64,000 nt of DNA from the NCBI GenBank assembly GCA_963817895.1, contig CAWFQB010000002.1, forward strand, positions 160,001-224,000, read 5' to 3'. Source of the DNA: an uncultured Chthonomonadaceae bacterium (GTDB lineage: Bacteria > Armatimonadota > Chthonomonadetes > Chthonomonadales > Chthonomonadaceae). Positions within the stretch are counted from its first letter, which is position 1. Each line of letters starts with the position of its first letter. The translations under genes and the position numbers were made by a program. The notes beneath the pieces were generated by a model, which made no database searches, had not been told where the DNA came from, and saw only the letters and a list, made by a program, of their open reading frames with translations. Shown piece after piece: positions 18,781 to 63,514 of the stretch.

Positions 18781-18841
18781 ATTCTGGACAACACATGGAA
18801 CATAGAAAGTGAGGACGAACAACACAATCAAAGTATCAAGA

Positions 18842-18868
18842 AGGAACACACAGTAATAAGATAATTCA
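18842..18868 (+). repeat. 27-bp direct repeat, copy 1 (AGGAACACACAGTAATAAGATAATTCA)
   Basis: Identical to 63239-63265; gapped similarity extends over ~18811-18880. Confidence 0.95.
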
Positions 18869-18959
18869 CTTTCTTTTGGGTGTCAATTCCGAGCATCACG
18901 TTGTGGGATGCAGCCATGCTTTCGCAGTACGCGACTCCAAGCGCATTGCGTGAGAAACA

Positions 18960-21165
18960 CTACGCGGCAAGTAAACTACTCTCCGAACGTCGCAGCATAA
19001 CAGCATTAACAGCGACGATGATAGAGGACGCTGACATCAGAAGCGCGGAGACTTCCGGGCGGAGTGACCAACCCAGCCAGTTATAGAACGCTCCCGCCGC
19101 GACAGGGATTGCCAGTACGTTGTAGACGCTGGCCCATACAAGGTTCTGCTTCATCTTTCTTACGGTGGCCTTCGACAAGATGATGGCATTCAGGATGTCG
19201 AGCGGATCGGACTGCATCAGCACGATCTTTGCCGCTTCGGTCGCCACATCCGTCCCGGCTCCAATGGCGATTCCAATATCAGCCTGCGCCAGCGCCGGTG
19301 CGTCGTTCACGCCGTCGCCGACCATTGCCACGAATTTGCCTTCGGCCTGCAATTTCTTCACGTAGTCGGCTTTGTTCTCCGGCAGCACTTCCGCAAACAC
19401 GCGATCAATGCCGACTTCTTTGGCAACGGCTTCCGCCACAGTCTTGTTGTCCCCACTGACCATTGCAGTTTCAATGCCCAGTTTCTTCAACTCAGTAATC
19501 GCGCGTTTGGCGGACGGCTTGATAGGGTCGGCAACGCCAACAACGGCTGCGGCTTTTCCGTCTACGGCAAGAAGAATCACCGTGCGCCCTGCGGCAAGGA
19601 GGCGATCCAAATGCGTCTGAATAGGCGCGAGGACTACACCTTCGTTGGCAAAGAGCCGGGCATTGCCGACCAACACGCGCCGCCCGTCCACGGTGGCTTT
19701 CAGCCCGTGTCCGACGACGTTTTGGAAATCTGTGACATGCTCCGGTAGCGTCAGGTTGCGGTGCTTGGCTTCATTGAGTATCGCTGCCGCCAGTGGGTGA
19801 CTGGAATTGCGTTCCGCCGCCCCAAGCAGACCGGAGCGCGTCGTCTTCGGAGAAGCCCTCCGCAACGGCAACATCCGTAACGCGCGGCTTGCCTTCGGTG
19901 AGCGTTCCTGTTTTGTCCAGAACGACAGCCGTGATCCGGGACGCGCCTTCGAGCGTTGCTGCGTCTTTGATAAGGATGTGATGCTTCGCGCCCAGTCCCG
20001 TACCCACCGCGACAGCAGTAGGGGTGGCAAGGCCCAGCGCGTCCGGGCAGGCGATTACCACGGCTGAGATGGAGAAGGTAAGTGCCGTCAGGAAGGAGGC
20101 TCCCGCGCCCCACCGCCAGGCTACGAACGTGATGATGCCCGCCCCGACCGCCAACACGACCAAATAGGCTGCGGCTTTGTCTGCGAGACGCTGCCCCGGA
20201 GCCTTCGAGTTCTGCGCCGTTTCGACTAACTTGGCAATTCGGCTGAGGGTCGCGTCCTCGCCCACTGCCGTAGCCTTGTAGGTGACTGCACCTGCGCCGT
20301 TGACGGAGCCGCCAATGAGTTTGTCCCCCGGCTTCTTCTCCACCGGCACGCTTTCGCCGGTGACAAGGGCTTCGTCCACCGCCGTCTCTCCCTCTGTCAC
20401 TTCGCCATCTACGGGAACACGGTCGCCGGGGCGCAGCACGAGGAGATCGCCCTGAACCACTTCCGACGTGGGTATCTCGATCTCCTTGCCGTCCCGATGA
20501 ACGCGGGCTTTCGCAGGCACCAGATCAAAGAGGGCGCGCAGAGCATTGGACGTGCCGCGTCGGGACTTCATTTCCATCCAGTGCCCGAACAGCACGAAGG
20601 TAACGAGCATGGCAGCGGCTTCATAGAACAGGTCCTTGGAGCCAATGACGGTCAGATAAAAGGAAGCAAGATAGGCCGCCAGCACCCCAACGGCGATCAG
20701 CACTGCCATGTCCAGTTTGCGAGAGCGGAGCGCTTGATAGGCTCCGAAAATGAACATCCAGCCGCACCAGAACACCACCGGAGTCGTTAAAGCGAACAGC
20801 GTCCAGGAGCGCGCCTGAAGACGGAATGCCGAAGATGGATACCAAACATGGCTGCCATTGGGGAAAGAAGGACAATCGCAATGGACAACACCAATGCGAC
20901 CCAGAAGCGATTGCGGATGTCGGCTTCCATACTCGCCGCCATCGCCGGGTCGCTCATGTCGTGCGCCATGCCGCCCGGATTGGTGTGCGCCGTGTACTTC
21001 GCCCCGGTTCATTTCCTCGGTGTTCATGGACATGCCATGATGCTCGTTACGGGCCGGGGCGGTATCATCCCGCATACCAGAAATGTGGCTGGAGCCTTCC
21101 ACGGCAGCAGCCTCCGATTTAGGTTCGGCGATTTCGTGAGTAGATTGATGCTGATGCGGAAGCAT
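18960..21165 (-). CDS. heavy-metal (copper-type) P1B ATPase with His/Met-rich N terminus and CPD motif (frameshifted)
   Basis: TGES, IACPDALGLATP, DKTGT, SHPL, GDGVNDAP, YN and MSASS. Confidence 0.9.
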
Positions 21166-21212
21166 GGCATTGCCCTTCAACGGAAATATGCGAATATAGG
21201 ATAGTCTCATAT

Positions 21213-21229
21213 TTCTATTGCTAATAGAA
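21213..21229. promoter_or_regulatory. putative BlaI-family operator TTCTAT-TGCTA-ATAGAA
   Basis: Palindrome upstream of the ATPase; related copies at 24831, 30732, 32386. Confidence 0.65.
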
Positions 21230-21333
21230 TTTCAGAGCGTGAACCTGATAGTAGGAATAAGTTTTGGAGTGGTGCGACGGCCTAATGCTTAGGGGAAGTT
21301 TGCCCTCAAGCATTGCCCGAAAAGCGCGTCGCT

Positions 21334-21543
21334 TTATTGGGTGGGATAACCTGCTTTTTCCAGCCGAGCGCGAATGGCATTATCGTTCAGTTGCGCGTCA
21401 TCATATTCCACGCTCACGTTTTTGCTAGGAACATCCACTTCCACCGTCTGTACACCAGGTAAAGCGCCTAAAGAGCGTTTAATTGCGTTCGCGCAACCTC
21501 CGCAACTGATGTCCGGGGCGTGAGCCTGTAATGTATGGGTCAT
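21334..21543 (-). CDS. copZ: copper chaperone (HMA domain)
   Basis: DISCGGC motif, AGY terminus, AAAGGA RBS. Confidence 0.9.
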   Translation of the reverse strand: MTHTLQAHAPDISCGGCANAIKRSLGALPGVQTVEVDVPSKNVSVEYDDAQLNDNAIRARLEKAGYPTQ

Positions 21544-21643
21544 TTCTATGTATCCTTTCTCTTGCGTATCGCCTGTACTGTGAAAGGGGCAGGCATCTTT
21601 TATGTGCACGACAATGTAAGCCGCGCCGCTTACATGCGCTTCA

Positions 21644-24434
21644 TTATGCTGCTCGCTCAACCTTGTGGACATCAACCTGTCCCATTGTTGCGCGATTGTC
21701 AACAATGGGCTGAACGTTTCTCGAACCGACAGGCGCAAACCCACGCAGGCGCAGGGCGTTGGTTACGACCGAAACGCTGCTCATTGCCATCGCCGCTGAC
21801 GCGATCATCGGTGACAGCAGCCAACCCGTGAGCGGGAACAGAATACCCGCCGCAATCGGAATGCCCAGCGTGTTATAGCCGAAAGCAAAGGCAAGGTTCT
21901 GGCGGATGTTCCGCATCGTCGCCCGCGAGAGTTCGATAGCGTCCGCCACGCCATTGAGGTCGCCACGCATCAGCACTACGTCCGCGGCTTCAATGGCTAC
22001 ATCCGTTCCCGTTCCGATAGCCATGCCGATGTCAGCCTGCGCCAGCGCAGGGGCATCATTGATGCCGTCGCCCACCATTGCTACGACCTGTCCCTCGCCT
22101 TGCAACCGCTTGATCTCCTCCGCCTTGTGTTCGGGCATTACTTCCGGCAGAATGCGATCTATGCCGACCTGTCGAGCTACGGCTTCCGCTGTGCGGCGGT
22201 TGTCGCCCGTAAGCATCACCACCGTTACACCCATCGCTTTCAGGCGCGCAATGGCAGCAGGTGTCGTTGCCTTGATCGGGTCGGCGACAGCGAGTACGCC
22301 TGCAACTTTTCCATTGAGAGCCACAAGCATCGGAGTTTTGCCTTCCCCCGACAGTCTCGCCATTTCCCGCTCGAATGAAGCAGCATCTATGTCGCGCTCA
22401 CGCAACAGCGCGATATTGCCGAGCAGTACGTCGTGACCGCCCACATGGGCCTCCACACCGCGTCCGGCAAGCGCCTGGAATTGTGTAGTCGCCACCAGAT
22501 TTATGTTACGGGCCTGCGCTCCCGCGACAATGGCACTTGCCAGTGGGTGTTCACTGCCGCGCTCGACCGAGGCCGCCAATCGCAGCAGTTCGGTTTCCAG
22601 CACTCCCGGCGCGGTAATCACATCGGTGAGAGCGGGCTTACCTTCAGTGATGGTGCCGGTCTTGTCCAGCACGACGGTGTTCACGCCATGCACGGTTTCC
22701 AGAGCCTCAGCGTCCTTTATCAATACGCCTAATTGCGCGCCTCTGCCAGTTCCTACCATGATCGCCGTTGGCGTTGCTAATCCCAACGCGCACGGACAGG
22801 CGATAATCAGCACGGCGACGAAGGCGAGCAGCGCGTGCAGGAACTTCGGCTCCGGCCCCAGTATGTACCAGCCGACAAAGGTAGCGACCGCGAGCATCAG
22901 GACAACGGGAACGAAGTAGCCGGTGATGACATCGGCGAGCCGCTGGATTGGCGCGCGGCTGCCCTGCGCCTGCTCGACAAGCCGAACGATCTGCGCCAGG
23001 GCGGTGTCGCTGCCAACTCGTTTCGCTTCCATCGTGAACGCGCCGCGCTGATTGAGCGTTGCGCCTGTGACGTTCGCGCCTTCGCTCTTTTCGACGGGCA
23101 GGCTCTCGCCCGTCAGCATACTCTCGTCCACCCAGGAATGCCCGGACACCACCACGCCATCTACGGGTACTTTTTCGCCGGGACGCACCAGGAGGCGGTC
23201 GCCTACATGCACATCGCCAAGAGGCACGTCCACTTCCTGTCCCTCTCGCAAAACACGCGCCGTCTTCGGCTGCAAGCCAATCAGTTTTTCGATGGCGCTT
23301 CCCGTGCTGCGTTTGGCCCGCGCTTCCAGCAAGCGGCCCATGAGGATCAGCGTCACGATCACGGCTGCTGTCTCGAAGTACACTCCTCCATTCACGACCG
23401 CGCGCCGCAAAGAAGCCGGGCGCGACTGTGACCGCAAGGGAGTAGGAGTAGGCAGCAAACGTACCGACAACAATCAGCGTGTTCATGTCACTGGCGCGTT
23501 GCTTGAGAGCGGCCCACGCGCCCCGGAAGAAACCACTCCCGGCCCAGAACAGAACAGGAGTTGTCAAAATCAGTTGCGCCCAGTTCCACCACGGCTGCAT
23601 CGTCCAGCGCATGGGGATCAGCCCAAAGTGTGGCCCCATTCCCATCACCAGCACGGGGAGGGCAAGCGCCAGCGAAATCACAAAACGGCGCATGATTTCC
23701 TGCGCTTCGGTAGGTCTATCAGTCGGCTGTGACGGGGCGCTTCCCGAAGTCTGCCCAAAATGATCCAGTTGTGCCATGCTTGCGTTGTAGCCGGAGTCAT
23801 GCACGGCGGCAATCAAATCTTCCGGTTTCGCATGGTTTGCATCGAACTTGACGGCGGCGCGCTCCGCCAGCAGGTTTACCGTTGCGTCCTGCACACCCGG
23901 CACATTTTTAATCGCCTTTTCAACCCGACCTACGCACGACGCGCAGTGCATCCCCGTAATCGTCAGGTCGCAGCGTTCCATTGCCGGTTGTGTCTCATCA
24001 GCGCGAATGAGAGCAGCGGGCGTATCCATCTTGTCGTTGTTTACAGCGGAGGGCTGCGTTGCCGGGGTGACGATCAGTTGGCCCCGGTACATGTTCATGC
24101 CACAGGCGAACGCATACGTGCCCGGCTTGTCCGGCGTGAACTCTACGATTGTAGTTTGGAAAGCGGGCAGTTCTCGGTTGATCTGGAAGTCGGGGAAGAC
24201 CACACGCTCCGAGCAGCCGGTCGTCTCCTGCCGATCAAACTTCAAGCGCACCGGAATCCCGGCCTGTACCTGAATATGATCCGGCTGATAGGTGCCTTCC
24301 ACTCGAACAGTGATTTCCTGAATTCCGGCCTTTGTCTTGGCGCGCTTTCCTTCTTTCGGCCCGAAGAAAAACCAGGCCAGGAACGCGATTACGCCCGTGC
24401 CGCTTATCAAAACAGCCAATGTATCTGCGGTCAT
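21644..24434 (-). CDS. copA: Cu(I)-translocating P1B-1 ATPase with N-terminal cupredoxin and HMA domains (frameshift ~23400)
   Basis: ACGMNM cupredoxin, GMHCASC, TGES, CPC, DKTGT, SEHP, YN, MAMSS. Confidence 0.92.
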
Positions 24435-24470
24435 CTCTCACCTTGCTCTTTCACACAGTCCAGCAGGGAA

Positions 24471-24752
24471 CTACTTTGCAAACTTGTAGATCAAGTCCAT
24501 CATCTCCTGATAGGTTTTTTCGGCTTTATCCTCGTCGCCATCCCGCAACGCATCGGTTACGCAGTGCTGCAAGTGGTTGCGCATCAGGATTTTGCCCACG
24601 CTCCGCAGGGCTTCATGGACGGCAGAAACCTGGTTCATTACGTCCACGCAATAGGTATCCTCCTCTACCATCCGCTTGATGCCTTTCACCTGCCCCTCAA
24701 TGCGGTTCAGGCGGCGTAGCACATCCTCTTTCGGCTCGTTTTGAATTGCCAT
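24471..24752 (-). CDS. csoR: CsoR copper-sensing repressor
   Basis: RLNRIEGQVKGI, YCVDV, HLQHC (C-H-C ligands). Confidence 0.92.
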   Translation of the reverse strand: MAIQNEPKEDVLRRLNRIEGQVKGIKRMVEEDTYCVDVMNQVSAVHEALRSVGKILMRNHLQHCVTDALRDGDEDKAEKTYQEMMDLIYKFAK

Positions 24753-24766
24753 ATTCCCTCCGGCGC

Positions 24767-24787
24767 ATATACCCCCGGAGGGTATAT
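24767..24787. promoter_or_regulatory. CsoR operator ATATACCC-CCGGA-GGGTATAT
   Basis: GC-centred palindrome directly upstream of csoR. Confidence 0.8.
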
Positions 24788-24830
24788 ACCAACTTAATAG
24801 ACGCATGGCAGTAGGGTGAAGTTCCCATAT

Positions 24831-24847
24831 TTCTATTGCCAGTCGAA
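24831..24847. promoter_or_regulatory. putative BlaI-family operator TTCTAT-TGCCA-GTCGAA
   Basis: Shares CATATTTCTATTGC with the 21213 site. Confidence 0.55.
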
Positions 24848-24987
24848 CTACTTTCTAATCTTGTTCTATTTTGTTTGTATGCCTCTGTGGAAAGCGGCAT
24901 GTAAGCCCCATCAAGGAAAAAGGATAAGGATTAAGGAATGGCTTGTCACCGAAGCGTCTTGTAGCCCGCCTTCTTAATGTACTGTAC

Positions 24988-25031
24988 ACAAGGACGCCGG
25001 GGTGGGAAATTTCCCACCCCGGCGTCCTTGT
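24988..25031. terminator. 44-bp perfect palindrome at the end of the periplasmic copper operon
   Basis: ACAAGGACGCCGGGGTGGGAAA/TTTCCCACCCCGGCGTCCTTGT with no spacer. Confidence 0.65.
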
Positions 25032-25052
25032 TCATTCCGTGCTAAACTGTCC

Positions 25053-25349
25053 CTACATCTTCTCGTACTTGCCCATTTTCGCGTTCTTCACGTATTTGGC
25101 AGGGGCTTTGTCGAATTTCGGCTTGCACATGGGGCAGCAGAAGTAGTACGTCTTGCCCTTGTACGCGCTGTGGCCCACGGCGGCCTTCACAGACGCGATC
25201 TTTTCACCTGTGACAGGACAAATCAACGCGGCCTTTGTCGCCTTTGTGTTCGTTTTGGCGGGTTTAGGAGTTTTGTCCTGGTACGGGTTGGCAAACGCCG
25301 CGCCCGCGATTACGGTCAATGCGGACATTGTGAGAATCCAGTGTTTCAT
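25053..25349 (-). CDS. secreted YHS-domain protein
   Basis: Signal peptide, CPVTG...YKGKTYYFCCPMCKPKF. Confidence 0.85.
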   Translation of the reverse strand: MKHWILTMSALTVIAGAAFANPYQDKTPKPAKTNTKATKAALICPVTGEKIASVKAAVGHSAYKGKTYYFCCPMCKPKFDKAPAKYVKNAKMGKYEKM

Positions 25350-25490
25350 ATTTCATCCTTTCGAGACGTTTTCGCCTCTTACTGTCAATAGAACGGCTTA
25401 TGCAGTTCGTCGTGACATTGTTTTCCCATCGTGTACGGCGCGAATGGAATCGATTTCCACCCGCGCCGCAGGTTCACAATGTTTGTGCAA

Positions 25491-26819
25491 TCACTTCGGC
25501 ACGTTGAAGTCGAGCGCTTTGGTGAACGGCTTCTGCTTGGGCGGCGTGACGGTGATGGTGACGCGCCACGGGCCTTTCATGCTGAACGTGACTTCGGACA
25601 GGTAATGACCGGACTTGTCTTCTTTCGTCTTCGGGCGCGTCACGCCCATGTCCATGCTGGTCATTTCCACGGCAGCCGTCACCTTCGCGCCGGTCACCGG
25701 CTTTCCGGCAGGATCAAGCACCGTCACGTCCAGCATGTTCTTGCCGACCTTGAGGGACTTGACGGGAGTGTTGACCATGACTTGATAGCCAGGCGTTTGC
25801 GTGGGAGCCGTTTTGTCTCCTGCGGGCTTTGCCGTATCAGTCGCCTTTGGGGTTTCCGTCCCTTTTGCAGCCGACTTGTCATCTGTCGCAGCCGTTTTTG
25901 CAGGGGCCTTGTCGTCCACCGCCGTTTTCACGGGTGTAGGTAAGGTCGCTGTAGGTGCTGGCACATCCGGTTTTTGCGGAGCGTTGTCGGGCTTCGGGTT
26001 GTTCTGTGCTGTCATATCCGGCATCTTTTCACCGGGTGCGGTGGAAGGGGCACCCTTCTTATCCGGCATCGCCATGCCCGCCATTCCAGAACGGGAAGTA
26101 TCCTGTGCAGTCGGCATCTTCCACTTGGTTTTGCCGTCTACGCTGAAGTCAAGCGTGGATTGAACGGCGTTCTTCTTGTCCGCCTTGCCGTCATTCATCA
26201 ATGTGACTCGCCACGGCCCCTTCATGCTAAAATTGACGGGGACAGAGTAATGACCGTCCTTGCCTTCCACAGCCTTCGGGCGTTCAGTTCCCATATCCAT
26301 GCTGGTCATAGCGACCGTCGCCATGAGTTTCAAGCCCGGCACAGGTTTGCCGCCCGCATCAGTCACAAGGACATCCAGCATGTTGTCGCCAACGGCGGGT
26401 GGGTTCTGTGCCAGAGTAACGGTGATGGGTAAGCCCTGATTCTGCCCCATCGCCATGCCCTTGATATTCTTCATGCCCTTCATGTTCTTGGCATCCATCT
26501 TCATGCCGGGCCGCATGGGGGCCATCTTCATGTGTTCCATGCCGGAACCGCCCACCATCATCAGGGTCATCATCTCCGCCATATCGGAGTCTTTGCCGAA
26601 ACCGAGCATATCGTCCCAGTTTTCATCACCTTTGACGGTCACGATGCCTGCCTCTTTGATGCGCGACATTTCCTGCATCGCGCCTTTGTAGACACGATCC
26701 TTCTTGGTAGCGGCTCCGCCCGCGACCTCCTGCGCGCCCGCGAAGGCGACGAGCAGGGTCATGCCAAGCGCCACTGCTGTCGCGCTCCGTATGGTTCTGT
26801 GTTTGTTTCGCGTATTCAT
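25491..26819 (-). CDS. secreted Met-rich protein with two YtkA/FixH-like domains
   Basis: Signal peptide, Met-rich segment, repeated MTSMDMG...GHY...FSMKGPWRV units. Confidence 0.8.
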   Translation of the reverse strand: MNTRNKHRTIRSATAVALGMTLLVAFAGAQEVAGGAATKKDRVYKGAMQEMSRIKEAGIVTVKGDENWDDMLGFGKDSDMAEMMTLMMVGGSGMEHMKMAPMRPGMKMDAKNMKGMKNIKGMAMGQNQGLPITVTLAQNPPAVGDNMLDVLVTDAGGKPVPGLKLMATVAMTSMDMGTERPKAVEGKDGHYSVPVNFSMKGPWRVTLMNDGKADKKNAVQSTLDFSVDGKTKWKMPTAQDTSRSGMAGMAMPDKKGAPSTAPGEKMPDMTAQNNPKPDNAPQKPDVPAPTATLPTPVKTAVDDKAPAKTAATDDKSAAKGTETPKATDTAKPAGDKTAPTQTPGYQVMVNTPVKSLKVGKNMLDVTVLDPAGKPVTGAKVTAAVEMTSMDMGVTRPKTKEDKSGHYLSEVTFSMKGPWRVTITVTPPKQKPFTKALDFNVPK

Positions 26820-26856
26820 GGTTCTCTCGCTTTCACGCCATACCGGTTTAGTCAGA

Positions 26857-28086: not shown

Positions 28087-28146
28087 TCCCTGTTCTCCTT
28101 ATTGTTTGCCATCTTGCCTGTTGATATGGTTTGGTTCACGACCGAC

Positions 28147-29466: not shown

Positions 29467-29527
29467 CGTTGTATCCTTATGGCACGGCGGGAAAAGCATT
29501 TCCCGCCGTGCCAACTATGAACCGATG

Positions 29528-30181
29528 CTACTTCGCGTCTTTGCTCGGCGCTTCGGTCGCCTTCTTTTGCTGGGCGTCCTTGATGCGCGCGTCAAGGCCG
29601 TTCAGGTACTTGTCCGGGTTCTTGTCGAACTGCGGTTTGCACCCGTCGCAGCAGAAGTAGTACCGCGTGTCCTTGTAGTCACTGTAATCGGGGGCTTTGG
29701 CGTAAGCCTCCACGATCTCATTGCTCACCGGGCAGAACAAAACTTCCTTCTTGGGTACAGCCGCGTACTTCTTCGGCTCTTGGTCAAAGGTCTTTTTTTC
29801 ATCTTCTTTGGCAAAGAAATAGCGGACGCCGTTGTAGTCGCTATGCACGGTTGCCTTATCCGCTTCGAGGCGTTTGGTCGTGACAGGATCGAACATCGCC
29901 GTGCCGAGCACTTTGCCTTTGTTCTTGTCGTCCTTGAGGAACTTGGCCTGGTCTTTGTCGAACTGCGGCTTGCAGCCCTCGCAGCAGAAGTAATACCGCA
30001 CACCTTTGTAGTCCGAGGGCTGCGTGTCCTTTGTTACTTTGGCAATCGGGTTGTGCAGCACGGGACAGGTAAAGGAACCGGTGTCCTCAGCGCGAACGAC
30101 AGAAACAGGGAACAGTACGGCGGCGCAGGCGAGAGCCGCAAGAAAAGTGCGCCGAGACGCGCGAATGGTCTGGGAAAACAT
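29528..30181 (-). CDS. secreted protein with three YHS-like domains
   Basis: RRTFL signal; three C/DPV...DY.G/D.RY.F repeats. Confidence 0.85.
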   Translation of the reverse strand: MFSQTIRASRRTFLAALACAAVLFPVSVVRAEDTGSFTCPVLHNPIAKVTKDTQPSDYKGVRYYFCCEGCKPQFDKDQAKFLKDDKNKGKVLGTAMFDPVTTKRLEADKATVHSDYNGVRYFFAKEDEKKTFDQEPKKYAAVPKKEVLFCPVSNEIVEAYAKAPDYSDYKDTRYYFCCDGCKPQFDKNPDKYLNGLDARIKDAQQKKATEAPSKDAK

Positions 30182-30250
30182 GGATACATACCTTTCTTCG
30201 AGTTGATGTGACGCTAGATTAAGGCTACCATCAGGCAGCCGGAGTCAGAC

Positions 30251-52299: not shown

Positions 52300-52483
52300 T
52301 TAGATCAGCGTGTCGGGAATCATAATTTCCAGTTTGGTCTTGACGATCTGCTCATAGCGTCCGGGATGGACGCTGACAGCGCACCTCGGAAAGCGTAATG
52401 CCCGGCAGCCCTTCGATCTCATGCAGCGCGTTCAGAACGTTATCCAGCATGAACGGCTGAATGATGGCTTTGACTTCCTTCAT
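52300..52483 (-). pseudogene. truncated P-II-family protein downstream of czcA (absent from ORF track)
   Basis: MKEVKAIIQPFMLDNVLNAL...GITLSEV / VKTKLEIMIPDTLI*; one frameshift, C-terminal GDGKIF part missing. Confidence 0.7.
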
Positions 52484-52536
52484 CGGTGTTCTTCGCACAG
52501 ACCCAGGCGAGAATATTCCTCGCCTGGGTCTGCAAG

Positions 52537-55637
<3,101 letters not shown>

Positions 55638-55640
55638 GGC

Positions 55641-57427
55641 TCAGTCATCCCCTTTCAGTTTGTCTTTGTTGGCTTCGCTTTTCAGGACAAACATGCCTTC
55701 CGTGACAACGCGCTCACCGGCTTTGAGGCTTCCGATGATTTCCGCCTGTGTATCGGTGACGCGCCCAACCTGCACCTTGCGTCGCTCGTACTTGCCATTC
55801 TCCTCCACGTACACGAACCTGTCCGCGCCATCTTCTTCCAGGGCGGAGACCGGCACGGTGAGGGCGTTCGTGCGCGTACCAACGCCGAGCGTGACGCGGG
55901 CGAACATCTCCGGGCGAAGCAGCCCGCTGCGGTTTTCGACCAAACACCGCACAGCAAGCGCGCGGGTCTTTTCGTCTACCCGGCCTGCAATGCTCTGCAC
56001 TGTTCCGGGGAAGTGCTGCTTGGGATAGGCCGGAACCGTCACCTCCACAGGCTGCCCCACCCGGATGCGCGCAACGCTCGCTTCGGCAACATTGGCGTTG
56101 ACCGTTACGGTGTTCAGGTTCTCGATGACAAGAAGGGCCGTCGTGCGCTCCACAGCCTCGCCGGTTGTTGCGGCGCGCTCCGTAACAACCCCGCTGATAG
56201 GAGCCGAAACGGTGATCAGACCGCCATTTCCCTCCGTATGCCCACTTCCTTCCAGGGCGTAAAGATTGGTGCGGGCGGTTCGCAACGTATCTTCCGCGCC
56301 TCGCAAAGTGGTTCGGGCCGCCTGCTCGCCTTTTTGTGCGCGGCGAACGTCCTGCTGTGCCCGCAGCACTCCCTGTCGGGCTTTCTGCACCTCGCCCTGC
56401 GCGGCGCGCACGTCGGCTTCTGCGGTCTGCACTTCGCGCGCGTTCAGCAAACCGCCCTGAAAAACGGTCTGTTCGCGTTGCAGCGCTTGTTTGGCAATGG
56501 CGACACGCTCCTGAATCCGGTTCACCGTGATCTGGTTCTGTTTTTGTTCCAGTTGTGCCGCTTCGTAATCGTTGCGCGACACCAATTCTTCTTTGAACAG
56601 CCGCTCGGTGCGCTGCAACTGCGCCGCGCGGGTTTGCAGTTGCGCTTGCGCCTGTTGTAGTTCGGATTGGGCAGCGGTCACCTCGGTCTGAGCGGCTTGT
56701 AGCGGGACTTGTGAGAAGGCTCCCGCCTGAGCCAGTTTACGCTGGCGCTGCAACACGGTTTCCGCGCTGGCTTGCCGGGTGCGCGCCTGCTCCACTTCGC
56801 CCTGCGCCTGCTGGACGCTTGCTTGGTACTGTGATACCTCCGCCTGCGCGGTTTGTATCCCGGAGCGCGCCTGCTGTATGCCGGATTCGGCCTGGCGCAC
56901 GGCAGCATGGGCCTGTGCCACCTCATAACTATCCAGAACGACGAGCGGCTGTCCGGCGCGCACCGTATCGCCAAGATTGACCAGCAGGCGCATCACCTTG
57001 CCGGGCGTGGGCGGCGTAATCTTCGCGCCCCGATTGGGACTGAGTTCGACGGTGCCGGGAACGGTCAGCCCTTCGCCGATGGACGCAAGACGCGCTGCCA
57101 CCACGCGAATGCCAGCAGTTTTGGCGGCTTCCTCGCTCAAGGAAATGGAGCCGGAAGCGTCGCTTTCTGCTTTGGCTTCTTTGGGTGCGTCCTGAGCCGG
57201 GCTTGTGGCGGCGGGGGCGATGGATGAAGGCGCGGCATTACAAACGACGTAGCCACAACGCCGAGCAGAATGCCGCCAATGATAAGCGGCAAGCCCGATT
57301 TGCGCGGTGAGGCGGCCTGGCGCCTGCCAGAGATCGGAACACTTGCCGCAGTCCCATGCGTGGTTCTAGGTACAGGTGGCGGTATATGTTCGGTTGTGTT
57401 GTGTGTGGTTTCGGGCAAAGGATTCAT
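55641..57427 (-). CDS. czcB: heavy-metal RND periplasmic adaptor (frameshift ~57150)
   Basis: GDTVRAGQ, SAPISGVV, LRPEMFA. Confidence 0.85.
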
Positions 57428-57429
57428 GT

Positions 57430-58699
57430 TTACCTCCGGGGCGCGGGCAGCAACGAAGCAGGAACCGCACCCGCCGCGCGCTCCAACTCGGCGCGCGCCT
57501 GGGCCTGGTTTGCCAGAGCGTTGATGTAGTCGGTTTGCACGGCGCGATATGTGCGCTGCGCTTCCAAAATGGTGAGGACGCTGGTTCCCGCCGCGCCTTC
57601 CTGAAACGCCCTGCGGCTGCCTTCCAGCAGGCGGCGTGACTGGTCGAGGATGCCCTGTTGGTAGTTCAGCGCCACGGTTTGAGCTGCGCGCAGGCGGGCA
57701 ATGGCCTGAGTCACTTCCTGCTGCACCTGGTTCTGGGTTGCGGTAATGCGGTCCGTCTGCGCGCGGGCAGATTCTTCGGCCTGGCGGATGCGGTTGCGGC
57801 GATTGCCGTAGTCAAAGATGGGCAGCGAAATGCCTAGTCCCACGCCGAAGCCGTTGCCCGTGTCGCCGCTCGGCGTCCCTCGTACCAGGCTGCCGAAGCG
57901 GATTTGGGGCGCGAGGTCAGGGCGGCCCTCGGCACGGGCAAGGCGCGCTTCCTGCAAGAAGGTGTCGCGGCTGGCAGTCACACTGGCAATCTCGGCCCGG
58001 TTTTGCAAGGACTGCTGCACAAGAGCCGCATCAGTGAGCGTTTCCGTAGCCGAAGGCAGTGGGGTGAGCGGGCCAATGGGAGTGTCTGCGGGTCTTCCCA
58101 AGAAGGTGTTCAGAGCAGAAATTGCAGCCGTCACCTGGGCATCTGCAAGGGTCACCTGCTGCTGCGCGCGCCCCACTTCAATGCCGGTCTGTGCCAGATC
58201 AATGCCGGGCCGCCTGCCCGCCTTCCACTAGGAGGCGCGTCACGCGGTCGAACTCCTGCGCGTTTTTCAGCACCTCCTGCGCCAGGGTTTGCAGTTCCCG
58301 CGCCTGTTCCAGTTGGTAGTAGGCGGACTTGGTAGCCGACACGAGACCCCGCAGTTCAACAACCGCCTCGGCCTGGGTGACGCGCAACTGCGCCCCGGCA
58401 ACGCCTGTGCGCGCGGAGCGAGTTCCATTGAGTTCCAATGGCTGGGACAACAACAGTTCGTCGCCGGAACCGGAAATACTTGTCAGTCCTGGCGCGAAGA
58501 TGAAGTTGGGGTTGGTAAGCGCGCGTGCCGAACGGACGCCAGACTGTCCCGCCACGACATCTCGCGTGGCAGCCGACAGGCGTGGGTTGTTCTTGACCGC
58601 CAGCGTCACCGCATCGTCTGCGGTGAGGGGCGGGGATATGGTCTGTGCCGTGATAACACCCGGCACAAGCAAAAGCAAACAGGGAAGAATGAAACGCAC
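57430..58699 (-). CDS. czcC: TolC-family outer membrane factor (frameshift ~58200)
   Basis: NNPRL, LSQPLEL, SLPIFD, LEAQRT. Confidence 0.85.
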
Positions 58700-58800
58700 G
58701 AAATCCTCCTGACAGACCCGATGGGCCGGATGTCAGGCAGGCGTAAAGAAGGAATGGCACAATGCGCTGACGAACCCGGCTCGAAAATAAATTGGGTAGG

Positions 58801-59244
58801 TCAGGCGATAGGAGGAGCGCGTAGGGAAAGATTGCGGAAATTCAGAGGAGCGCGAGGCGGGCCGCGTGTCTCAATGTGAAGGAGAACAGTCTCGGATGCA
58901 GGCGGGGCCGCATACGTGATGGTGGGCAGAACAGGGAGAATGGCAATCGCAAGCGAGGGAACGATATGGGAAGGCACTGCGGCATCATGTGAGGTCGCCG
59001 CTTTGACGTTCAACGTACATTTACAGCCAGCGCCACACCCATCTGCTTTGCGGGCGTTGGTGGTATTCGTGGAGCGTACACGGCATTTTAAATCTTGCTG
59101 ACGGATAGGAGCCTGACAGCAACAAACAGCGGCAGTGCTGCATACGCGCCCGTCGCAAATCCAAGCCATTGCCTCCCCACTTGATAACAGCGAGGTTAGC
59201 AAAATCAGGCAGGCCAGTATTCGGGTGAAGATGTTTCGTACCAT
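58801..59244 (-). CDS. Cys-rich leader protein ending RGPP...RAPP
   Basis: Signal-like N terminus, WICDGRVC/CCC/CGAGCKC, ETRGPPRAP...LRAPPIA*; first gene of czcCBA operon. Confidence 0.72.
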   Translation of the reverse strand: MVRNIFTRILACLILLTSLLSSGEAMAWICDGRVCSTAAVCCCQAPIRQQDLKCRVRSTNTTNARKADGCGAGCKCTLNVKAATSHDAAVPSHIVPSLAIAILPVLPTITYAAPPASETVLLHIETRGPPRAPLNFRNLSLRAPPIA

Positions 59245-59251
59245 CCTGAGC

Positions 59252-59260
59252 ATTATACCA
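59252..59260 (-). promoter_or_regulatory. extended -10 TGGTATAAT, probable leaderless start at 59244
   Basis: ATG 7 nt downstream of TATAAT. Confidence 0.6.
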
Positions 59261-59315
59261 CAATATTATGACACATCAAAGAATATCGGTTTCATTTAGC
59301 AAGACTGATGAGGAG

Positions 59316-60563
59316 TTATGGGATTGGTAGTTGGAAATCTCTAGCCTCAAGCAATAGTTGGGCAATAGTATCCATTTCCTTCTCAGCAGCGACATGCCAG
59401 GGCGTCATTTGCCAGGGATCAAGCAACATTGCGGCAGACATGTCTTGTTGCAGTATCGCCTTTAGTCTTTCCACATCACCATCCAGTACGGCTCGAAACA
59501 CCGGTATGGCACGCCGCGACGCAGTTGTAAGCGAACGCACTATTGGAGATGATATGGCTTCCTGGTAGGTGATGGCGTCCCCATGAGCCAAATCCTTGAG
59601 GGCCAACTCCAATGGTGTACTTCCATTGGAATCTCGTGCTGAGATGTCAGCGCCCGCTGTGAGCAAAATGTCAATGATTTGCTCCCGCCGCTTGATGCGT
59701 TCATCCTCATCCGACTTGTCGCCACCAATTGGTGGCACCCCCAAATCAACGCCATACCATTTTCCATTATCCCAGCCAATGTTTGAGGCAGCCAAGTGCA
59801 ACGGTGCGCGCGATAGACTATCCTGAGCATTAACCCACGCACCTGCATCAATCAATGCCTGAACAGTTGACGGACTATAACTAAGTGCCGCATTATGCAA
59901 CGGAGTTTCTTCAAAGAAGCATCTAGCCGCGAGATTGGCTCCATATCCAATCAAACATTCTACAATCTCCGAATGGCCTGTTGTTGCTGCCAGGCTAAGA
60001 GCAGTCTTGTAACCCTGCTTGGTTTGCTCAGTGCGCGCACCCATCTCAAGGAGGACGCGCACCACTTCTACTCGTTTGTTAAAAATCGCGACCAGAAGCG
60101 GTGTCGGATAAACACTATCATTGGCTACGGAATTGACCAACTCAGGTTGTTGTTGAAGCAGTTGTCTAAGGATTTCGACTTTACCCAACCCTGCGGCTTG
60201 ATATACGGCCTCGATCTCTCTTTGTTGACGTGCCGCAGTCTCTCTTATAGTCCGCATCTGTGTGGATGCCGCTTCTTCTGCGCCTGCTAGGACGCCCGTT
60301 ATTTCTGTGTTGCCATGATACACTCTAGCCCAATACCAGGGGGCATATCCACGTCTATCGCAGGCGTACACATCTGCTCCTCTCGATAATAGTAATCTTG
60401 CTATATCCGCGTGTCCGCCTGCCGCTGCCCAATGGAGTGCTGTCCAACCGTCGTTTCCGGGCCGATTGAGGCATTCAGCATCTTCAATCAGCAGGCGCTC
60501 CACTTCCGCCACGTCGCCCTGCTCGGCTGCACGATAGATAGTCTTCTCGTCAAATATACCCAT
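59316..60563 (-). CDS. ankyrin-repeat protein
   Basis: GWTALHWAA, TPLHNAA, APLHLAA, LL..GAD repeats; GGAGG RBS. Confidence 0.92.
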   Translation of the reverse strand: MGIFDEKTIYRAAEQGDVAEVERLLIEDAECLNRPGNDGWTALHWAAAGGHADIARLLLSRGADVYACDRRGYAPWYWARVYHGNTEITGVLAGAEEAASTQMRTIRETAARQQREIEAVYQAAGLGKVEILRQLLQQQPELVNSVANDSVYPTPLLVAIFNKRVEVVRVLLEMGARTEQTKQGYKTALSLAATTGHSEIVECLIGYGANLAARCFFEETPLHNAALSYSPSTVQALIDAGAWVNAQDSLSRAPLHLAASNIGWDNGKWYGVDLGVPPIGGDKSDEDERIKRREQIIDILLTAGADISARDSNGSTPLELALKDLAHGDAITYQEAISSPIVRSLTTASRRAIPVFRAVLDGDVERLKAILQQDMSAAMLLDPWQMTPWHVAAEKEMDTIAQLLLEARDFQLPIP

Positions 60564-60694
60564 GCCTCTCCTCCAATACCGGTCGTCGTGAAGCAAACAT
60601 TTTCACTTAAAAATATACCATGTTTTCACTTGTAAACCTATTGAGGACTACAAACTTGCGATAATGGTACACTCCCTTTGAATGGATTGTGCTA

Positions 60695-60979
60695 ATGCCG
60701 CGTGGTGCTCCCAGATTACGTGCAGGTGATGGAAAAAAGAACCAAGTGGGTTTGCGTGTGCGGCAACGCCGGGTGGAACTGCAACTCACTCAAGACGCCG
60801 TAAGCGCACATTTGGCGACGGCAACCGATGGAGAGTGGAGCCCCACTTTGCAAGAGATACTACACATCGAAAATGGCAGCCGTATCGTATCCGATGTTGA
60901 AGTGGTTGCTCTGGCACGCGCATTAGAGTGTGATGCGTGCTGGCTCCTGGTAGGGAATAGAGATGAGACAAACGCTTGA
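60695..60979 (+). CDS. XRE-family HTH regulator
   Basis: VGLRVRQRR..LQLTQ, IENGSR, LARAL. Confidence 0.85.
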   Translation: MPRGAPRLRAGDGKKNQVGLRVRQRRVELQLTQDAVSAHLATATDGEWSPTLQEILHIENGSRIVSDVEVVALARALECDACWLLVGNRDETNA

Positions 60980-61021
60980 TTGCCCGTATGAAATGTTTTT
61001 CATACGGGCAATCAAGCGTTT
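60970..61021. terminator. hairpin with 24-bp perfect arms overlapping the XRE stop
   Basis: AAACGCTTGATTGCCCGTATGAAA-TGTT-TTTCATACGGGCAATCAAGCGTTT. Confidence 0.65.
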
Positions 61022-61233
61022 AATGAAGTATTAACCACCTTAAACTTGCCGCTCCTGCTCGAAGCAAATTATTTTCTCTATTTAATCGATTGCAAAATCC
61101 ATTATGGAAAGCGACATTCCACATTGTTGATCCACTTTCACAGGTGTACTTACTGGTTTCCACAGCATCCTTACGGGATTTTGCAACGAGCAGGTAATCC
61201 TACGATGAGGCCGAGGTTGGCACGAGCCGAAGA

Positions 61234-63261
61234 TTGATTTACCTCATATTTTTGAGGCCAATTACAATCTCATCTCTAGGAAATATGTCGATGAACATGT
61301 CCGCCGAATTTGATCAGAACATCTTTACCTGCCACACCATGCCGCTCGCGGGCTATCTTGAATCAGAAGGCTACGCGGAGATCGCTCCTAAAAAGAAGGT
61401 AAACGCTGCTGACTATGAGCGTTTGGTGCCGACGACAACCACCATCGCACGCGCAATGTTTTCAGCGCTTCCTCAGCGGGATAGGTGGGGGCGGCAGGTA
61501 CAGGGAAGGACAGGAGGGCAGTGGGTGACAGAGGTTAGAGGCCAATGGTATCCGGCGCGCAATGGCTCAAAGCGTCCCGGCAAATCCCTGACGGCTCACG
61601 ACCTTCTGCGCTCCCTTGCCCGCCCCAACGTGTTTGCGTTCGGGCGCACCGATGCCCATGTTGAGGAAGTTGAGTTTCCTCGGTTCCGGGCTGAGGAGTT
61701 TCACACTACCTCTGTGGACTGTCTTTGTCTCGATGTGGATATGGATTTTGCCTGGGAGCGGCAGGATGCTGGAATGATACATCACGAGATCGCCCGTGAG
61801 CATGAGATCGCTCGCGCGCTTGGTCTGTTCTATCGCGTTTTCAGGACAGGGAGCAGAGGGCATCAGGTGGTAATACCGCTCCCTGCCGCTATTGATCGTA
61901 GTGTTGCGACATGGCTGTTGTATGGGTTCGTGAGTCTTCTCGAACAGTATCATCTGCGGGACACGGCAGAGAATAGTAACCATCTGCTTGCCAAAGCCGA
62001 TGTCTCTAATCTGGAAAAGATCATTCGAATCGCCGGAGGAAGACACATCAGGACGGGCAGGCTTGCCCTATGGATTGATCCCGGCACGGGACACCTGCAT
62101 GACCTGGCGCAACAAAGCGAGTTGATGCGCCGAGGGTATCAGCATCCGGGAAATGGGGCATTCGCGCGCGAGGATTATATTGAGGCCGCCGAGGAAATTG
62201 CGGCTTATCTTGAGTCTCAGATGGTGTTTCGTCACGAATGTCCTAAGATGCCTTTTCGCACAAACATGTTCCATGTGGTAGTGAAAGCGTTACCGACCAA
62301 TCTACTCGTTGAACGCTTCTTGGCTGCACAGGACGAATGGGGGCTATCTGCGACCTCAGCGCGTTTGTCAAAGGTGAGTACGCCCAAAGTTGACACCACC
62401 CATGTGGAAAACCAAACGGACGCCAGTGAATGGCAGTCGGCACCGGAGGGCATACAACAATGGGCAACCCGTGTTTGGGCCATGCAGTGGGGTGAAGGAA
62501 CATTTTGGTCTTGGGTAAATGAGGGAGGAGAGCGGGCCATCACTGCCGCCAAAGTTTTATTCGGCGATCAGGCGCTCAGAAAACTGATCGAGCGCACGTA
62601 TGCTGCGCCGCATGTTACGCCGGAGGAACCGAACGAATGGCGCAGGGTTATCAATGCGCTTTACCATCGGCATGAAATGTTGGGATATAAAGCGCGGCTG
62701 AATCCCAACACCGTGTTTGGACATCTTTCGGATGAGGATGTAGCGTTGATTCCGATGATAACGGACGCGCTAAATACGCATAAAAAAATCCAAACGCGCA
62801 ACCGGGAGGACATCGAACACATCATCTACATCTTGCTGCTGGCGTTCAAGCAGTCTGTCGAAGGCTATATTGATCTTTCACAGGAGGCTATCCGAGATTC
62901 CATCCGTACCCGATGGCCTGATGCTGACGTGGATGTTTCCACAATTTGGCGACACCTGCGCCGTCTCAAAGAGGGCGACTCCGCTTGCGGCTTTTCCCTT
63001 TTACAATCAATCCGTGTGGATCGTTCAGGGCAAAACTATGCGGCACGGTACCGGCCTGGCGCAGACCTGCGCAAAACACCGTTCGGCGCGACACTGCCTG
63101 TTGACGCTTGCGAGGATGCTCCAGAGCGTACGTCTGGCCCATTAGAGATGGAGGTTATATCTCGTGTCACAGGCAAAATCGAAACCGTTGATCTCTCTCC
63201 TAAACAAAGAGGACGCAAACCAACGCAACAATATCAAGAGGAACACACAGTAATAAGATAA
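61234..63261 (+). CDS. putative replication protein: AEP primase-like domain plus C-terminal HTH
   Basis: LCLDVD (DxD), TGSRGHQV, IRIAGGRH; LSQEAI...VSTIWRHLRRL; start more likely 61285-61297. Confidence 0.65.
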   Translation: MIYLIFLRPITISSLGNMSMNMSAEFDQNIFTCHTMPLAGYLESEGYAEIAPKKKVNAADYERLVPTTTTIARAMFSALPQRDRWGRQVQGRTGGQWVTEVRGQWYPARNGSKRPGKSLTAHDLLRSLARPNVFAFGRTDAHVEEVEFPRFRAEEFHTTSVDCLCLDVDMDFAWERQDAGMIHHEIAREHEIARALGLFYRVFRTGSRGHQVVIPLPAAIDRSVATWLLYGFVSLLEQYHLRDTAENSNHLLAKADVSNLEKIIRIAGGRHIRTGRLALWIDPGTGHLHDLAQQSELMRRGYQHPGNGAFAREDYIEAAEEIAAYLESQMVFRHECPKMPFRTNMFHVVVKALPTNLLVERFLAAQDEWGLSATSARLSKVSTPKVDTTHVENQTDASEWQSAPEGIQQWATRVWAMQWGEGTFWSWVNEGGERAITAAKVLFGDQALRKLIERTYAAPHVTPEEPNEWRRVINALYHRHEMLGYKARLNPNTVFGHLSDEDVALIPMITDALNTHKKIQTRNREDIEHIIYILLLAFKQSVEGYIDLSQEAIRDSIRTRWPDADVDVSTIWRHLRRLKEGDSACGFSLLQSIRVDRSGQNYAARYRPGADLRKTPFGATLPVDACEDAPERTSGPLEMEVISRVTGKIETVDLSPKQRGRKPTQQYQEEHTVIR

Positions 63262-63265
63262 TTCA
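63239..63265 (+). repeat. 27-bp direct repeat, copy 2, overlapping the rep stop codon
   Basis: Identical to 18842-18868. Confidence 0.95.
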
Positions 63266-63514
63266 GTTTTTAGGGATGAACACATCCAGGCATCGAGCCA
63301 CGAGTTGGAGGCCAGACAATGCCGACACTCCTATGGTTGCTCCTCCCATTTTGATGGAGAGCCATTATTTCGGGGGAAGGCCAGTATACAACGTAATCGC
63401 CGTCGAGTATACCATACGCCAATGTGCCACAACCATTGCAGCCTCTCTCGTGAATGAGAGGGAGTTCGCCCGCTCTCTAACCCTGCGTGTGCGATTGGCA
63501 GATGACAGCCATGT

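What the first reader, a model, noticed from the sequence alone, without database searches (positions are those of the whole stretch)
18811..63275. 27-bp identical direct repeat 44.4 kb apart, one copy on the rep stop codon
Seen: AGGAACACACAGTAATAAGATAATTCA at 18842-18868 (intergenic) and 63239-63265; similarity extends to ~65 bp with frame-breaking gaps, so conservation appears to be at DNA level. Established: ColE2-type Reps (AEP primase plus HTH) use a ~30-bp origin directly downstream of rep and prime with ppApGpA; this core contains AGA. Inference: a Rep origin present twice, or att-like ends of a nested 44-kb module, recording stepwise accretion and possibly allowing excision or amplification of the cargo.
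Basis: partly seen in the sequence, partly recalled or inferred. Interest (0 to 1): 0.8.

Follow-up and report, generated by a model that had tools for sequence, protein, structure and literature searches.

The report
Duplicated primase-gene end site in island
A short DNA site on the stop codon of a primase-like replication gene occurs a second time 44 kb upstream as the stub of a lost gene copy, so a metal-resistance block looks like a small replicon that recombined into a larger genomic island.

Summary
The 27-mer is exact at 18842-18868 and 63239-65, and the second copy spans the stop codon of a 656-675-aa ORF. It is not a dispersed repeat: a ~110-bp profile finds three copies in the 7.5-Mb genome, two on the stop codons of paralogous "rep" genes (contigs C2 and C4) and one orphan. 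The orphan still carries a decayed rep C-terminal coding stub.

Rep matches no Pfam, NCBIfam or PHROG model. Its predicted fold is an AEP prim-pol domain plus a winged helix, so "AEP plus HTH" holds, but membership of the ColE2 family is not shown.

In a second Rep subfamily an invariant 12-mer lies 5-47 nt after the rep stop in 6 of 6 loci. The 18-mer containing it is single-copy in the 5 of those genomes where it matched. This favours a Rep cis-site, probably an origin, over an att repeat.

The whole window lies inside a ~101-kb island inserted in comM beside a large serine recombinase. The 44.4-kb block contains rep, one site and metal-resistance cargo, and no recombinase.

Best reading (0.5): a Rep origin-like site was duplicated when two rep-site modules recombined. 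Excision today is untested; no usable reads were available.

The parts
18842..18868 (+). Copy A of the 27-bp core (orphan, no rep gene beside it)
   Evidence: Exact match. It is among the 11 most AT-rich 25-mer clusters of the window.
18800..18900 (+). Extended site A: a decayed stub of the rep 3' coding end (about 18811-18864, with a 1-nt indel and an in-frame stop) plus about 35 nt of site-like downstream sequence
   Evidence: Alignments to copies B and C. The nhmmer hit is C2:178801-178910, E 1e-26.
63239..63265 (+). Copy B of the 27-bp core, spanning the rep stop codon (TAA 63259-63261)
63199..63307 (+). Extended site B. The homology to the C4 paralogous module ends at 63270.
   Evidence: nhmmer. 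The C2/C4 blastn block is 59348-63270 at 87.5% identity.
61234..63261 (+). rep: an AEP prim-pol domain plus a winged-helix domain, with a conserved RGR tail. The longest ORF is 675 aa; the database form of 656 aa would start at 61291.
   Evidence: No family model matches.
60689..60979 (+). Xre-type HTH gene upstream of rep, part of the conserved 3.9-kb module
   Evidence: Pfam HTH_19, HTH_31 and HTH_3. Conserved on C4.
59316..60596 (-). Ankyrin-repeat gene at the left edge of the conserved module; homology to C4 starts at 59348
60970..61021 (.). Perfect palindrome with 24-bp arms over the HTH stop codon. It is an alternative origin or terminator candidate.
   Evidence: It is 96% complementary in the C4 copy.
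18869..59315 (.). Cargo between the repeats: P-type ATPases, a multicopper oxidase, YHS, CDF, RND and MFS transporters, MerR and LysR regulators, a methyltransferase and others. No recombinase is present.
   Evidence: Pfam scan. Six-frame searches for PF00589, PF07508, PF00239 and PF00665 find nothing in C2:178842-223265.
63384..63521 (+). imuB gene fragment just right of copy B; on C4 the intact-length homolog lies upstream of the rep module
   Evidence: blastn to C4:68889-69026. Pfam IMS_C on the C4 ORF.
15269..18781 (+). Broken RND (AcrB/CzcA-like) gene ending 30 nt before the rep stub
   Evidence: Pfam ACR_tran in three frames. There are 5 single-base insertions within 1 kb compared with the G002 ortholog.
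18960..21210 (-). P-type ATPase gene in two frames, convergent on copy A

Best explanation
The 27-mer is the conserved core of a cis-acting site of about 60-100 bp that belongs to an orphan-family initiator, Rep (AEP prim-pol domain, winged helix and a basic RGR tail). The site sits on or just after the rep stop codon. I infer that it is Rep's binding and priming site: the winged helix and tail bind it, the AT-rich core melts, the AEP domain primes, and a host polymerase extends. This is the ColE2-like layout. It would let the rep-bearing DNA, whether an ancestral plasmid or the excised island, replicate.

Copy A is the last ~17 codons plus site of a second rep-site module whose gene has been lost. 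Two modules in direct orientation are what a Campbell-type recombination would leave. Here that means a 44.4-kb metal-resistance Rep replicon (one site, cargo, ankyrin-HTH-rep) joining a resident rep-site module inside a ~101-kb comM island. The perfect core between flanks of about 63% identity reflects either a crossover within the core or continued selection for binding by the same Rep.

Shown: the anatomy, the copy number, the fold and the family-wide position of the site. Inferred: the origin function, the recombination history and any present activity.
For: 1. The genome has only three copies. Two lie on the stop codons of the two rep paralogs and one is an orphan.
2. Conservation is at DNA level. 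The C4 copy has a 2-bp indel that changes the last residues (EEHTQ* against EEHTVIR*), yet the DNA is kept.
3. The 87.5% C2/C4 homology block of 3.9 kb ends 5 bp after the core.
4. Rep has an AEP fold (Z 13.8, 194 residues aligned to 7nqd; RepB' Z 7.9), a winged helix (Z 6-7.8 to Fur, PerR and Cdc6 winged helices) and invariant motif I-III residues.
5. In a second subfamily (Reps 33-52% identical to one another apart from one 83% pair, and 27-33% to ours) the 12-mer GGTGTAACGGTT lies 5-47 nt after the rep stop in 6 of 6 loci. The 18-mer at 2 or fewer mismatches matched in 5 of those 6 genomes, once each, beside rep. The sixth (G112/L026) gave only 3-mismatch hits on other contigs.
6. The left flank of copy A still reads as a rep tail, GR..YQE.
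7. A 27-nt exact run is unlikely under uniform decay (P 1.4e-4).
8. The core is one of the 11 most AT-rich spots in the window.
9. In ColE2 and RepA-PFP replicons the origin lies in or just after the 3' end of rep (PMC5304414, passages read). ColE2 Rep is an AEP that binds its origin and primes (PMC4538821, passages read).
Against: 1. There is no functional data.
2. The two closest homolog loci for which DNA could be fetched (L009 and L022/L007, 41-45% identical) show no convincing motif at the stop.
3. An HMM of the subfamily-2 motif does not retrieve copies A, B or C in this genome, so the resemblance between the two motifs is by eye only.
4. A perfect 52-bp palindrome and a structured leader upstream of rep are alternative origin candidates.
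5. AGA is not conserved; the C4 copy reads AGG.
6. The locus lies in a 758-kb contig, not on a plasmid.
7. Rep could instead be a conflict-system AEP. The nearest Atlas clusters are AEP-TOTE, and the top structural hit is a CRISPR-associated prim-pol.
8. The right flanks of A, B and C are about equally diverged from one another, so a chimeric junction is not demonstrated.
Confidence: 0.5

Rival explanations
1. The repeats are attL/attR-type junctions made by a site-specific recombinase acting in trans, for example the second large serine recombinase at 4746-7166. On this reading the site is an attachment site and not Rep's origin, and the 44.4-kb block is a nested integrative element that can still excise.
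For: An identical core with diverging flanks on both sides is the classic att pattern. The block has rep at its extreme right end and carries accessory cargo. Chromosomal bacterial AEP genes are nearly always in integrated elements bounded by att direct repeats (PMC5862659, passages read). One homolog locus has a large serine recombinase divergent from rep.
Against: The block contains no tyrosine, serine or rve recombinase. The C4 island carries the same module with only one site copy. In the 5 subfamily-2 genomes where the 18-mer matched at 2 or fewer mismatches, it is single-copy. Large serine recombinases usually leave a core of only a few bp, as at the comM junction here. The left flank of copy A is a rep pseudo-tail and not an unrelated target. 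The window recombinase is only 23% identical to the one beside the rep homolog.
Confidence: 0.15
2. Copy A is an inert relic. A second rep gene decayed and was mostly deleted. The exact 27-mer is a leftover of gene conversion or chance and has no present function.
For: The neighbourhood is decaying. The RND gene has 5 frameshifts per kb and the ATPase is split. The flanks of copy A are only about 60-67% identical to copy B.
Against: A 27-nt perfect run inside flanks of about 63% identity has P of about 1e-4 under uniform decay. Gene conversion limited to exactly the conserved core would itself call for an explanation.
Confidence: 0.2
3. The site is a gene-expression element of rep, such as a terminator, a 3' UTR signal or an antisense promoter, and is not a replication or recombination site.
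For: A sigma-70-like promoter match reads leftward from copy A (TTGACA-17-TATCTT). By eye, a similar arrangement exists in the C4 copy.
Against: No terminator-like hairpin lies at either copy on the + strand. The promoter-like match is absent from copy B, the copy beside the intact gene. An orphan copy without a gene would then have no role.
Confidence: 0.05
4. The repeat is an assembly artefact.
For: The assembly scores only 81% complete in 14 contigs and has many frameshifted genes.
Against: A 27-bp repeat is too short to mislead a long-read assembly. Both copies have long unique flanks. The diverged flanks and the independent C4 copy argue that the sequence is real.
Confidence: 0.02

Closest known systems
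ColE2/ColE3 (class C theta) replicons and the related RepA-PFP replicons of Pseudomonas
   Same: The initiator is an AEP-type primase with a DNA-binding domain. A small origin lies in or immediately after the 3' end of rep, and that origin is itself an incompatibility determinant (PMC5304414 and PMC4538821, passages read). Here too a conserved site sits on the rep stop codon.
   Different: Rep here is 650-675 aa, against up to 437 aa quoted for RepA-PFP. It matches no Rep, primase or PriCT Pfam model, and distant relatives lean weakly toward LigD_Prim-Pol. The locus is in a chromosomal island of a bacterium in the same phylum as genomes whose records are titled Armatimonadaceae. The AGA priming triplet is not conserved. 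Priming and binding are untested.
RSF1010 RepB' primase with its ssiA/ssiB recognition sites
   Same: It is an AEP primase that recognises specific DNA sites present twice on one replicon (PMC4538821, passages read). It is also a structural match (3h25, Z 7.9).
   Different: RepB' acts with a separate helicase and a separate initiator, and its sites are hairpins in inverted orientation (recalled). Here there is a single large protein and direct repeats 44 kb apart.
Integrated mobile elements carrying PrimPol-type AEPs, bounded by att direct repeats (Kazlauskas et al. 2018, PMC5862659)
   Same: An AEP gene sits inside an integrated element. The whole window lies in a ~101-kb island that splits comM and has a large serine recombinase at its edge.
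   Different: The 27-bp repeat is not the boundary of that island. It is internal, overlaps the AEP gene's own stop codon, and has no recombinase between its copies.

Membership tests
AEP (archaeo-eukaryotic primase / Prim-Pol) superfamily | AEP catalytic fold | tested here: met
   AF2 model with mean pLDDT 74.8. Foldseek top 13 hits at E<=6e-4 are all Prim-Pol or LigD-pol. VIA-align Z 13.8, rmsd 3.3, 194 residues aligned to 7nqd_A.
AEP (archaeo-eukaryotic primase / Prim-Pol) superfamily | Motifs I (hhhDhD), II (sxH) and III (hD), as defined in PMC5862659 | tested here: met
   LDVDMD with D148 and D150, GRGHQ with H191, and D237 are invariant in 10 of 10 aligned homologs.
AEP (archaeo-eukaryotic primase / Prim-Pol) superfamily | Sequence match to a curated AEP model | tested here: inconclusive
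   None of the 10 close homologs hits any model at E<=10. Among 57 more distant relatives, 16 hit PF21686 LigD_Prim-Pol at E<=0.01, but only 1 exceeds the curated cut-off.
ColE2-type Rep/ori replicon | Rep sequence belongs to the ColE2 Rep family (primase plus PriCT plus HTH) | tested here: not met
   No Pfam, NCBIfam or PHROG match. The profile search against PDB sequences gave nothing. A winged helix is present by fold only.
ColE2-type Rep/ori replicon | Small conserved origin in or directly after the 3' end of rep | tested here: inconclusive
   A conserved site lies at the stop codon in both paralogs, and a positional analogue occurs in 6 of 6 subfamily-2 loci. Origin activity was not tested.
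ColE2-type Rep/ori replicon | Rep-made primer (AGA) at a fixed origin position, with DNA polymerase I dependence | not testable with these tools
   AGA is present in copies A and B but reads AGG in copy C.
ColE2-type Rep/ori replicon | Autonomous plasmid | tested here: not met
   The locus lies at 221-223 kb of a 758-kb contig, inside an island that splits comM.
att sites of an integrative element | Direct repeats bounding the element | tested here: met
   Exact 27-bp repeats 44,397 bp apart.
att sites of an integrative element | Cognate recombinase inside or beside the element | tested here: not met
   Nothing in C2:178842-223265 for PF00589, PF07508, PF00239 or PF00665, and nothing in the Pfam scan of its ORFs.
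att sites of an integrative element | Empty site in a relative, or a circular junction | tested here: inconclusive
   The same-genus genomes G001 and G002 lack rep and the site, and show no synteny across the block. No usable reads exist.
Large-serine-recombinase island in comM (context of the window) | Target gene split into two halves that abut in an intact ortholog, with the recombinase at one junction | tested here: met
   The comM halves lie at C2..157314 and C2:258318.. and abut, with a 13-bp alignment overlap, on the intact G001 gene. The recombinase is at C2:157382-159274.

The most novel reading that the evidence does not exclude
A previously undescribed initiator family (AEP prim-pol, winged helix and basic tail; 106 representatives among 1.84 billion; no curated model) has its origin fixed on or just after its own stop codon. 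In this genome a complete 44.4-kb Rep replicon carrying metal-resistance genes sits Campbell-integrated inside a 101-kb comM island. Recombination between the two 27-bp origin cores could release it as a self-replicating plasmid, a plasmid parked inside an island.
Probability: 0.25. Interest if true: 0.6.

Novelty: new variant of a known kind. Interest (0 to 1): 0.42.

Why it matters
If the site is Rep's origin, this defines a new and rare family of primase-type initiators. It comes with a recognisable cis-site rule, namely to look at the stop codon, and could be used to build vectors for a phylum that lacks genetic tools. It would also give a concrete example of how resistance cargo is added to genomic islands: whole small replicons recombine at their origins. 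If the site is not an origin, the finding is an ordinary recombination scar.

Tried and rejected
1. Read evidence for a 63265->18869 junction. Only one public run holds a small share (0.07) of the words, as short contigs, and none covers either copy. Nothing can be said either way.
2. Near-identical DNA in plasmids: none for the rep region, and only short ATPase matches for the copy A region.
3. Viral contigs: no rep relative and no motif.
4. Rfam and tRNA scans of the window found nothing.
5. Local-alignment test of the 27-mer against distant loci. The top hit falls at the rep stop only for L009 with the C4 query, by a small margin (20 against 16), so it is not convincing.
6. An HMM of the subfamily-2 motif against this genome does not rank copies A, B or C in its top 25.
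7. A second 3-mismatch hit 13 kb from the G284 site has no flank similarity and is chance.
8. Test for a chimeric (attP/attB-like) pattern in the right flanks. A, B and C are about equally diverged, so the result is uninformative.
9. No empty site or synteny was found in the same-genus genomes.
10. No consistent internal dyad or iteron is shared by the three copies.
11. The primary ColE2 origin papers could not be read because they are not held. The ColE2 origin sequence was therefore not compared.
12. A literature search for the 12-mer returned only an unrelated paper.


Full report
OBSERVATION. The 27-mer is exact at 18842-18868 and 63239-63265 on the + strand, and none of 100 shuffles produced a match. 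The second copy contains the TAA (63259-63261) that ends the ORF 61234-63261. blastn extends the similarity to 65 columns at 84.6%. A global alignment gives 32/48 identical columns on the left of the exact run and 26/44 on the right. With that flank identity, a perfect run of 27 or more has P = 1.4e-4. Copy A lies in the 178-bp spacer between a broken RND pump gene (ending 18781) and a convergent P-type ATPase gene (ending 18960).

COPY NUMBER. The window is C2:160001-224000 of a 7.48-Mb assembly with 14 contigs. At up to 3 mismatches the 27-mer occurs only twice in the genome. A profile of about 110 bp finds exactly three copies with E<1e-24: copy A, copy B, and copy C at C4:87446-87552. A Hamming scan agrees. 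Copy C sits on the stop codon of a rep paralog that is 86% identical in protein. So the motif is not a dispersed repeat, and two of its three copies are tied to rep stop codons.

WHAT REP IS. The protein has no Pfam, NCBIfam or PHROG match, and this holds even at E<=10 for all 10 close homologs. A profile search against PDB sequences gave nothing. An AlphaFold model built from the 10-sequence alignment has mean pLDDT 74.8.
- Foldseek's best matches are Prim-Pol domains: CAPP, LigD polymerase and Prim-PolC, with RepB' further down.
- VIA-align gives Z 13.8 (rmsd 3.3, 194 residues) to 7nqd for residues 50-306.
- It also finds a second domain at residues ~480-600 that matches winged helices of Fur, PerR and Cdc6 at Z 6-7.8. 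That level is only moderately above background, by the tool's own note.
- AEP motifs I, II and III are invariant in the alignment (motif definitions from PMC5862659, passages read).
- An R-G-R near the C-terminus is also invariant in the 10 homologs. Calling it AT-hook-like is my inference.

The family is rare. There are 10 hits among 5.8 billion clustered proteins and 106 representatives at E<=0.001 among 1.84 billion. It occurs in 3 of 101 relatives and 14 of 401 genomes of the phylum. Of 57 distant members scanned, 16 touch PF21686 LigD_Prim-Pol at E<=0.01, and only one exceeds the cut-off. None matches a Rep or PriCT model. The Atlas's nearest clusters are AEP-TOTE/HTH_36 and RepB_primase; this is a lead only. 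So 'AEP plus DNA-binding domain' is supported, and 'ColE2-type' family membership is not.

THE SITE TRAVELS WITH REP. C2 and C4 share a 3.9-kb block, window 59348-63270 (ankyrin gene on the minus strand, Xre-type HTH gene, rep), at 87.5% identity. The block stops 5 bp after the core. Its left edge is a ragged break inside the ankyrin gene. Copy C differs from copy B by one substitution and a 2-bp insertion. The insertion shifts the frame of the last codons, so the conservation is in the DNA and not in the peptide. The three copies also share a weak similarity of 25-35 nt downstream. The core is among the 11 most AT-rich 25-mer clusters of the window.

FAMILY-WIDE TEST.
- The loci closest to ours whose DNA could be fetched (L009; L007=L022; 41-45% identical) show no convincing motif.
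- A second subfamily does. It comprises L012, L023, L024, L025, L026 and L027. Its Reps are 33-52% identical to one another, apart from one pair at 83%, and 27-33% to ours. All 6 of 6 loci carry the invariant 12-mer GGTGTAACGGTT 5-47 nt after the rep stop.
- The 18-mer around it, at 2 or fewer mismatches, matched in five of those genomes, once each and beside rep. The sixth (G112/L026) gave only 3-mismatch hits on other contigs. Hits with 3 mismatches are as frequent as for the control pattern. One nearby 3-mismatch hit has no flank similarity.
- By eye the L027 site (ACAGTAAT..TAAGGT..TTCAG) resembles our core. However, an HMM of the subfamily-2 site does not rank copies A, B or C among its top 25 hits in this genome. 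I therefore claim positional analogy only, not sequence homology.

A DNA element that is far better conserved than its protein, fixed just after the stop, and single-copy in chromosomes fits a Rep recognition site better than a duplicated att core.

COPY A IS A REP STUB. Left of the core, copy A aligns to the last ~17 codons of rep. One frame still reads GR..YQE, against RGRKPTQQYQEE in Rep, with a stop and a 1-nt indel (read directly from the sequence). The stub begins about 30 nt after the RND gene. A 9-kb RND module is conserved in a same-genus genome, and that homology ends at window 18659. So a second rep-site module once lay here, and all but its last ~100 bp has been lost.

CONTEXT. comM is split. 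Its 5' part is at C2:156392-157357 and its 3' part at C2:258272-259045. The two halves abut on the intact ortholog of a same-genus genome, with the junction at GGACGA|ACTGCC. A large serine recombinase at C2:157382-159274 lies about 70 bp inside the left junction. The whole window is therefore inside an island of about 101 kb.

The 44.4-kb block between the repeats holds metal-resistance cargo, ankyrin-HTH-rep and one site. It holds no recombinase.

Right of copy B lie 113 unique bp and then an imuB fragment and a PAS histidine kinase. On C4 their homologs lie upstream of the rep module, in the order imuB::IS, dnaE2, kinases, further genes, ankyrin-HTH-rep-site. This is a circular permutation of the C2 order.

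That pattern, and the fact that the block is exactly 'one site plus cargo plus rep', is what integration of circular Rep replicons at their sites would leave. This history is inference. The right flanks of the three copies are about equally diverged and do not prove a chimeric junction. C4 has no second copy.

COMPARISON WITH THE KNOWN. In ColE2 and RepA-PFP replicons the origin lies in or right after the 3' end of rep, and it is an incompatibility determinant. The Rep is an AEP that binds the origin, unwinds it and makes a short primer (PMC5304414 and PMC4538821, passages read). The layout here is the same. The protein family, its size, the host phylum and the chromosomal setting differ, and the AGA argument fails for copy C. 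Chromosomal AEP genes are typically in integrated elements with att repeats (PMC5862659, passages read). Here the island's own junctions are at comM, not at the 27-mer.

ALTERNATIVES AND LIMITS.
- A perfect palindrome with 24-bp arms lies on the HTH stop codon, and nested inverted repeats lie in the rep leader. Both are conserved on C4 and could be the real origin or a control element.
- No terminator-like hairpin lies at the site.
- The read-based test failed for lack of data.
- The primary ColE2 origin papers were not held, so no sequence comparison with the ColE2 origin was made.

VERDICT. The repeat is most likely the origin-like cis-site of a new AEP/winged-helix initiator family, duplicated by recombination between two rep-site modules nested in a comM island. 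It is of moderate interest: a new variant of a known kind, with function untested.

Noticed in passing
G000:C2:156392-157357 and C2:258272-259045 (outside the window; the window lies between them): comM (Mg-chelatase-like) is split by an insertion of about 101 kb. A large serine recombinase (C2:157382-159274, minus strand) lies about 70 bp inside the left junction. The junction in the intact ortholog reads GGACGA|ACTGCC.
   Followed up: yes
window 60970-61021; also 61054-61068/61180-61194 and 61090-61108/61168-61186: A perfect palindrome with 24-bp arms lies on the HTH gene's stop codon, and nested long-range inverted repeats lie in the rep leader. The palindrome and the 61054-61068/61180-61194 pair recur in the C4 paralog. 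They could be a control RNA, a terminator or an alternative origin.
   Followed up: partly
loci L012, L023, L024, L025, L026, L027 (5-47 nt after the rep stop): The invariant 12-mer GGTGTAACGGTT follows the stop codon of Rep homologs that are only 33-52% identical to each other. The 18-mer containing it is single-copy in the five genomes where it matched at 2 or fewer mismatches.
   Followed up: yes
window 15269-18781, 18960-21210, 40641-41417, 52568-55600: Many metal-resistance genes are in pieces: two RND pumps, a P-type ATPase and a TauE exporter. The first RND gene has 5 single-base insertions within 1 kb compared with a same-genus ortholog. Whether this is real decay or assembly indel error is open; the genome scores 81% complete in 14 contigs.
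   Followed up: partly
window 63384-63521; C4:66436-72811: An imuB fragment lies beside copy B. On C4 there is an imuB (interrupted by an IS with an rve transposase) and dnaE2 mutagenesis cassette next to homologous kinases.
   Followed up: partly
window 4746-7166: A second large serine recombinase (806 aa, with a weak C-terminal YozE_SAM_like match) sits in a ~3-kb block that is 80% identical to a same-genus genome lacking rep. Its att sites were not sought.
   Followed up: no
C2:232961-245000 and C4:87826-106517: The two paralogous islands carry different defence cargo: type I R-M and a Piwi-domain protein on C2; DUF499, NucS-like and SNF2/NOV_C proteins on C4. The C4 island ends near a tyrosine integrase (C4:118853-119971).
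   Followed up: no
window 42868-43458: A methyltransferase ORF (Methyltransf_31/25/11). I did not examine it.
   Followed up: no
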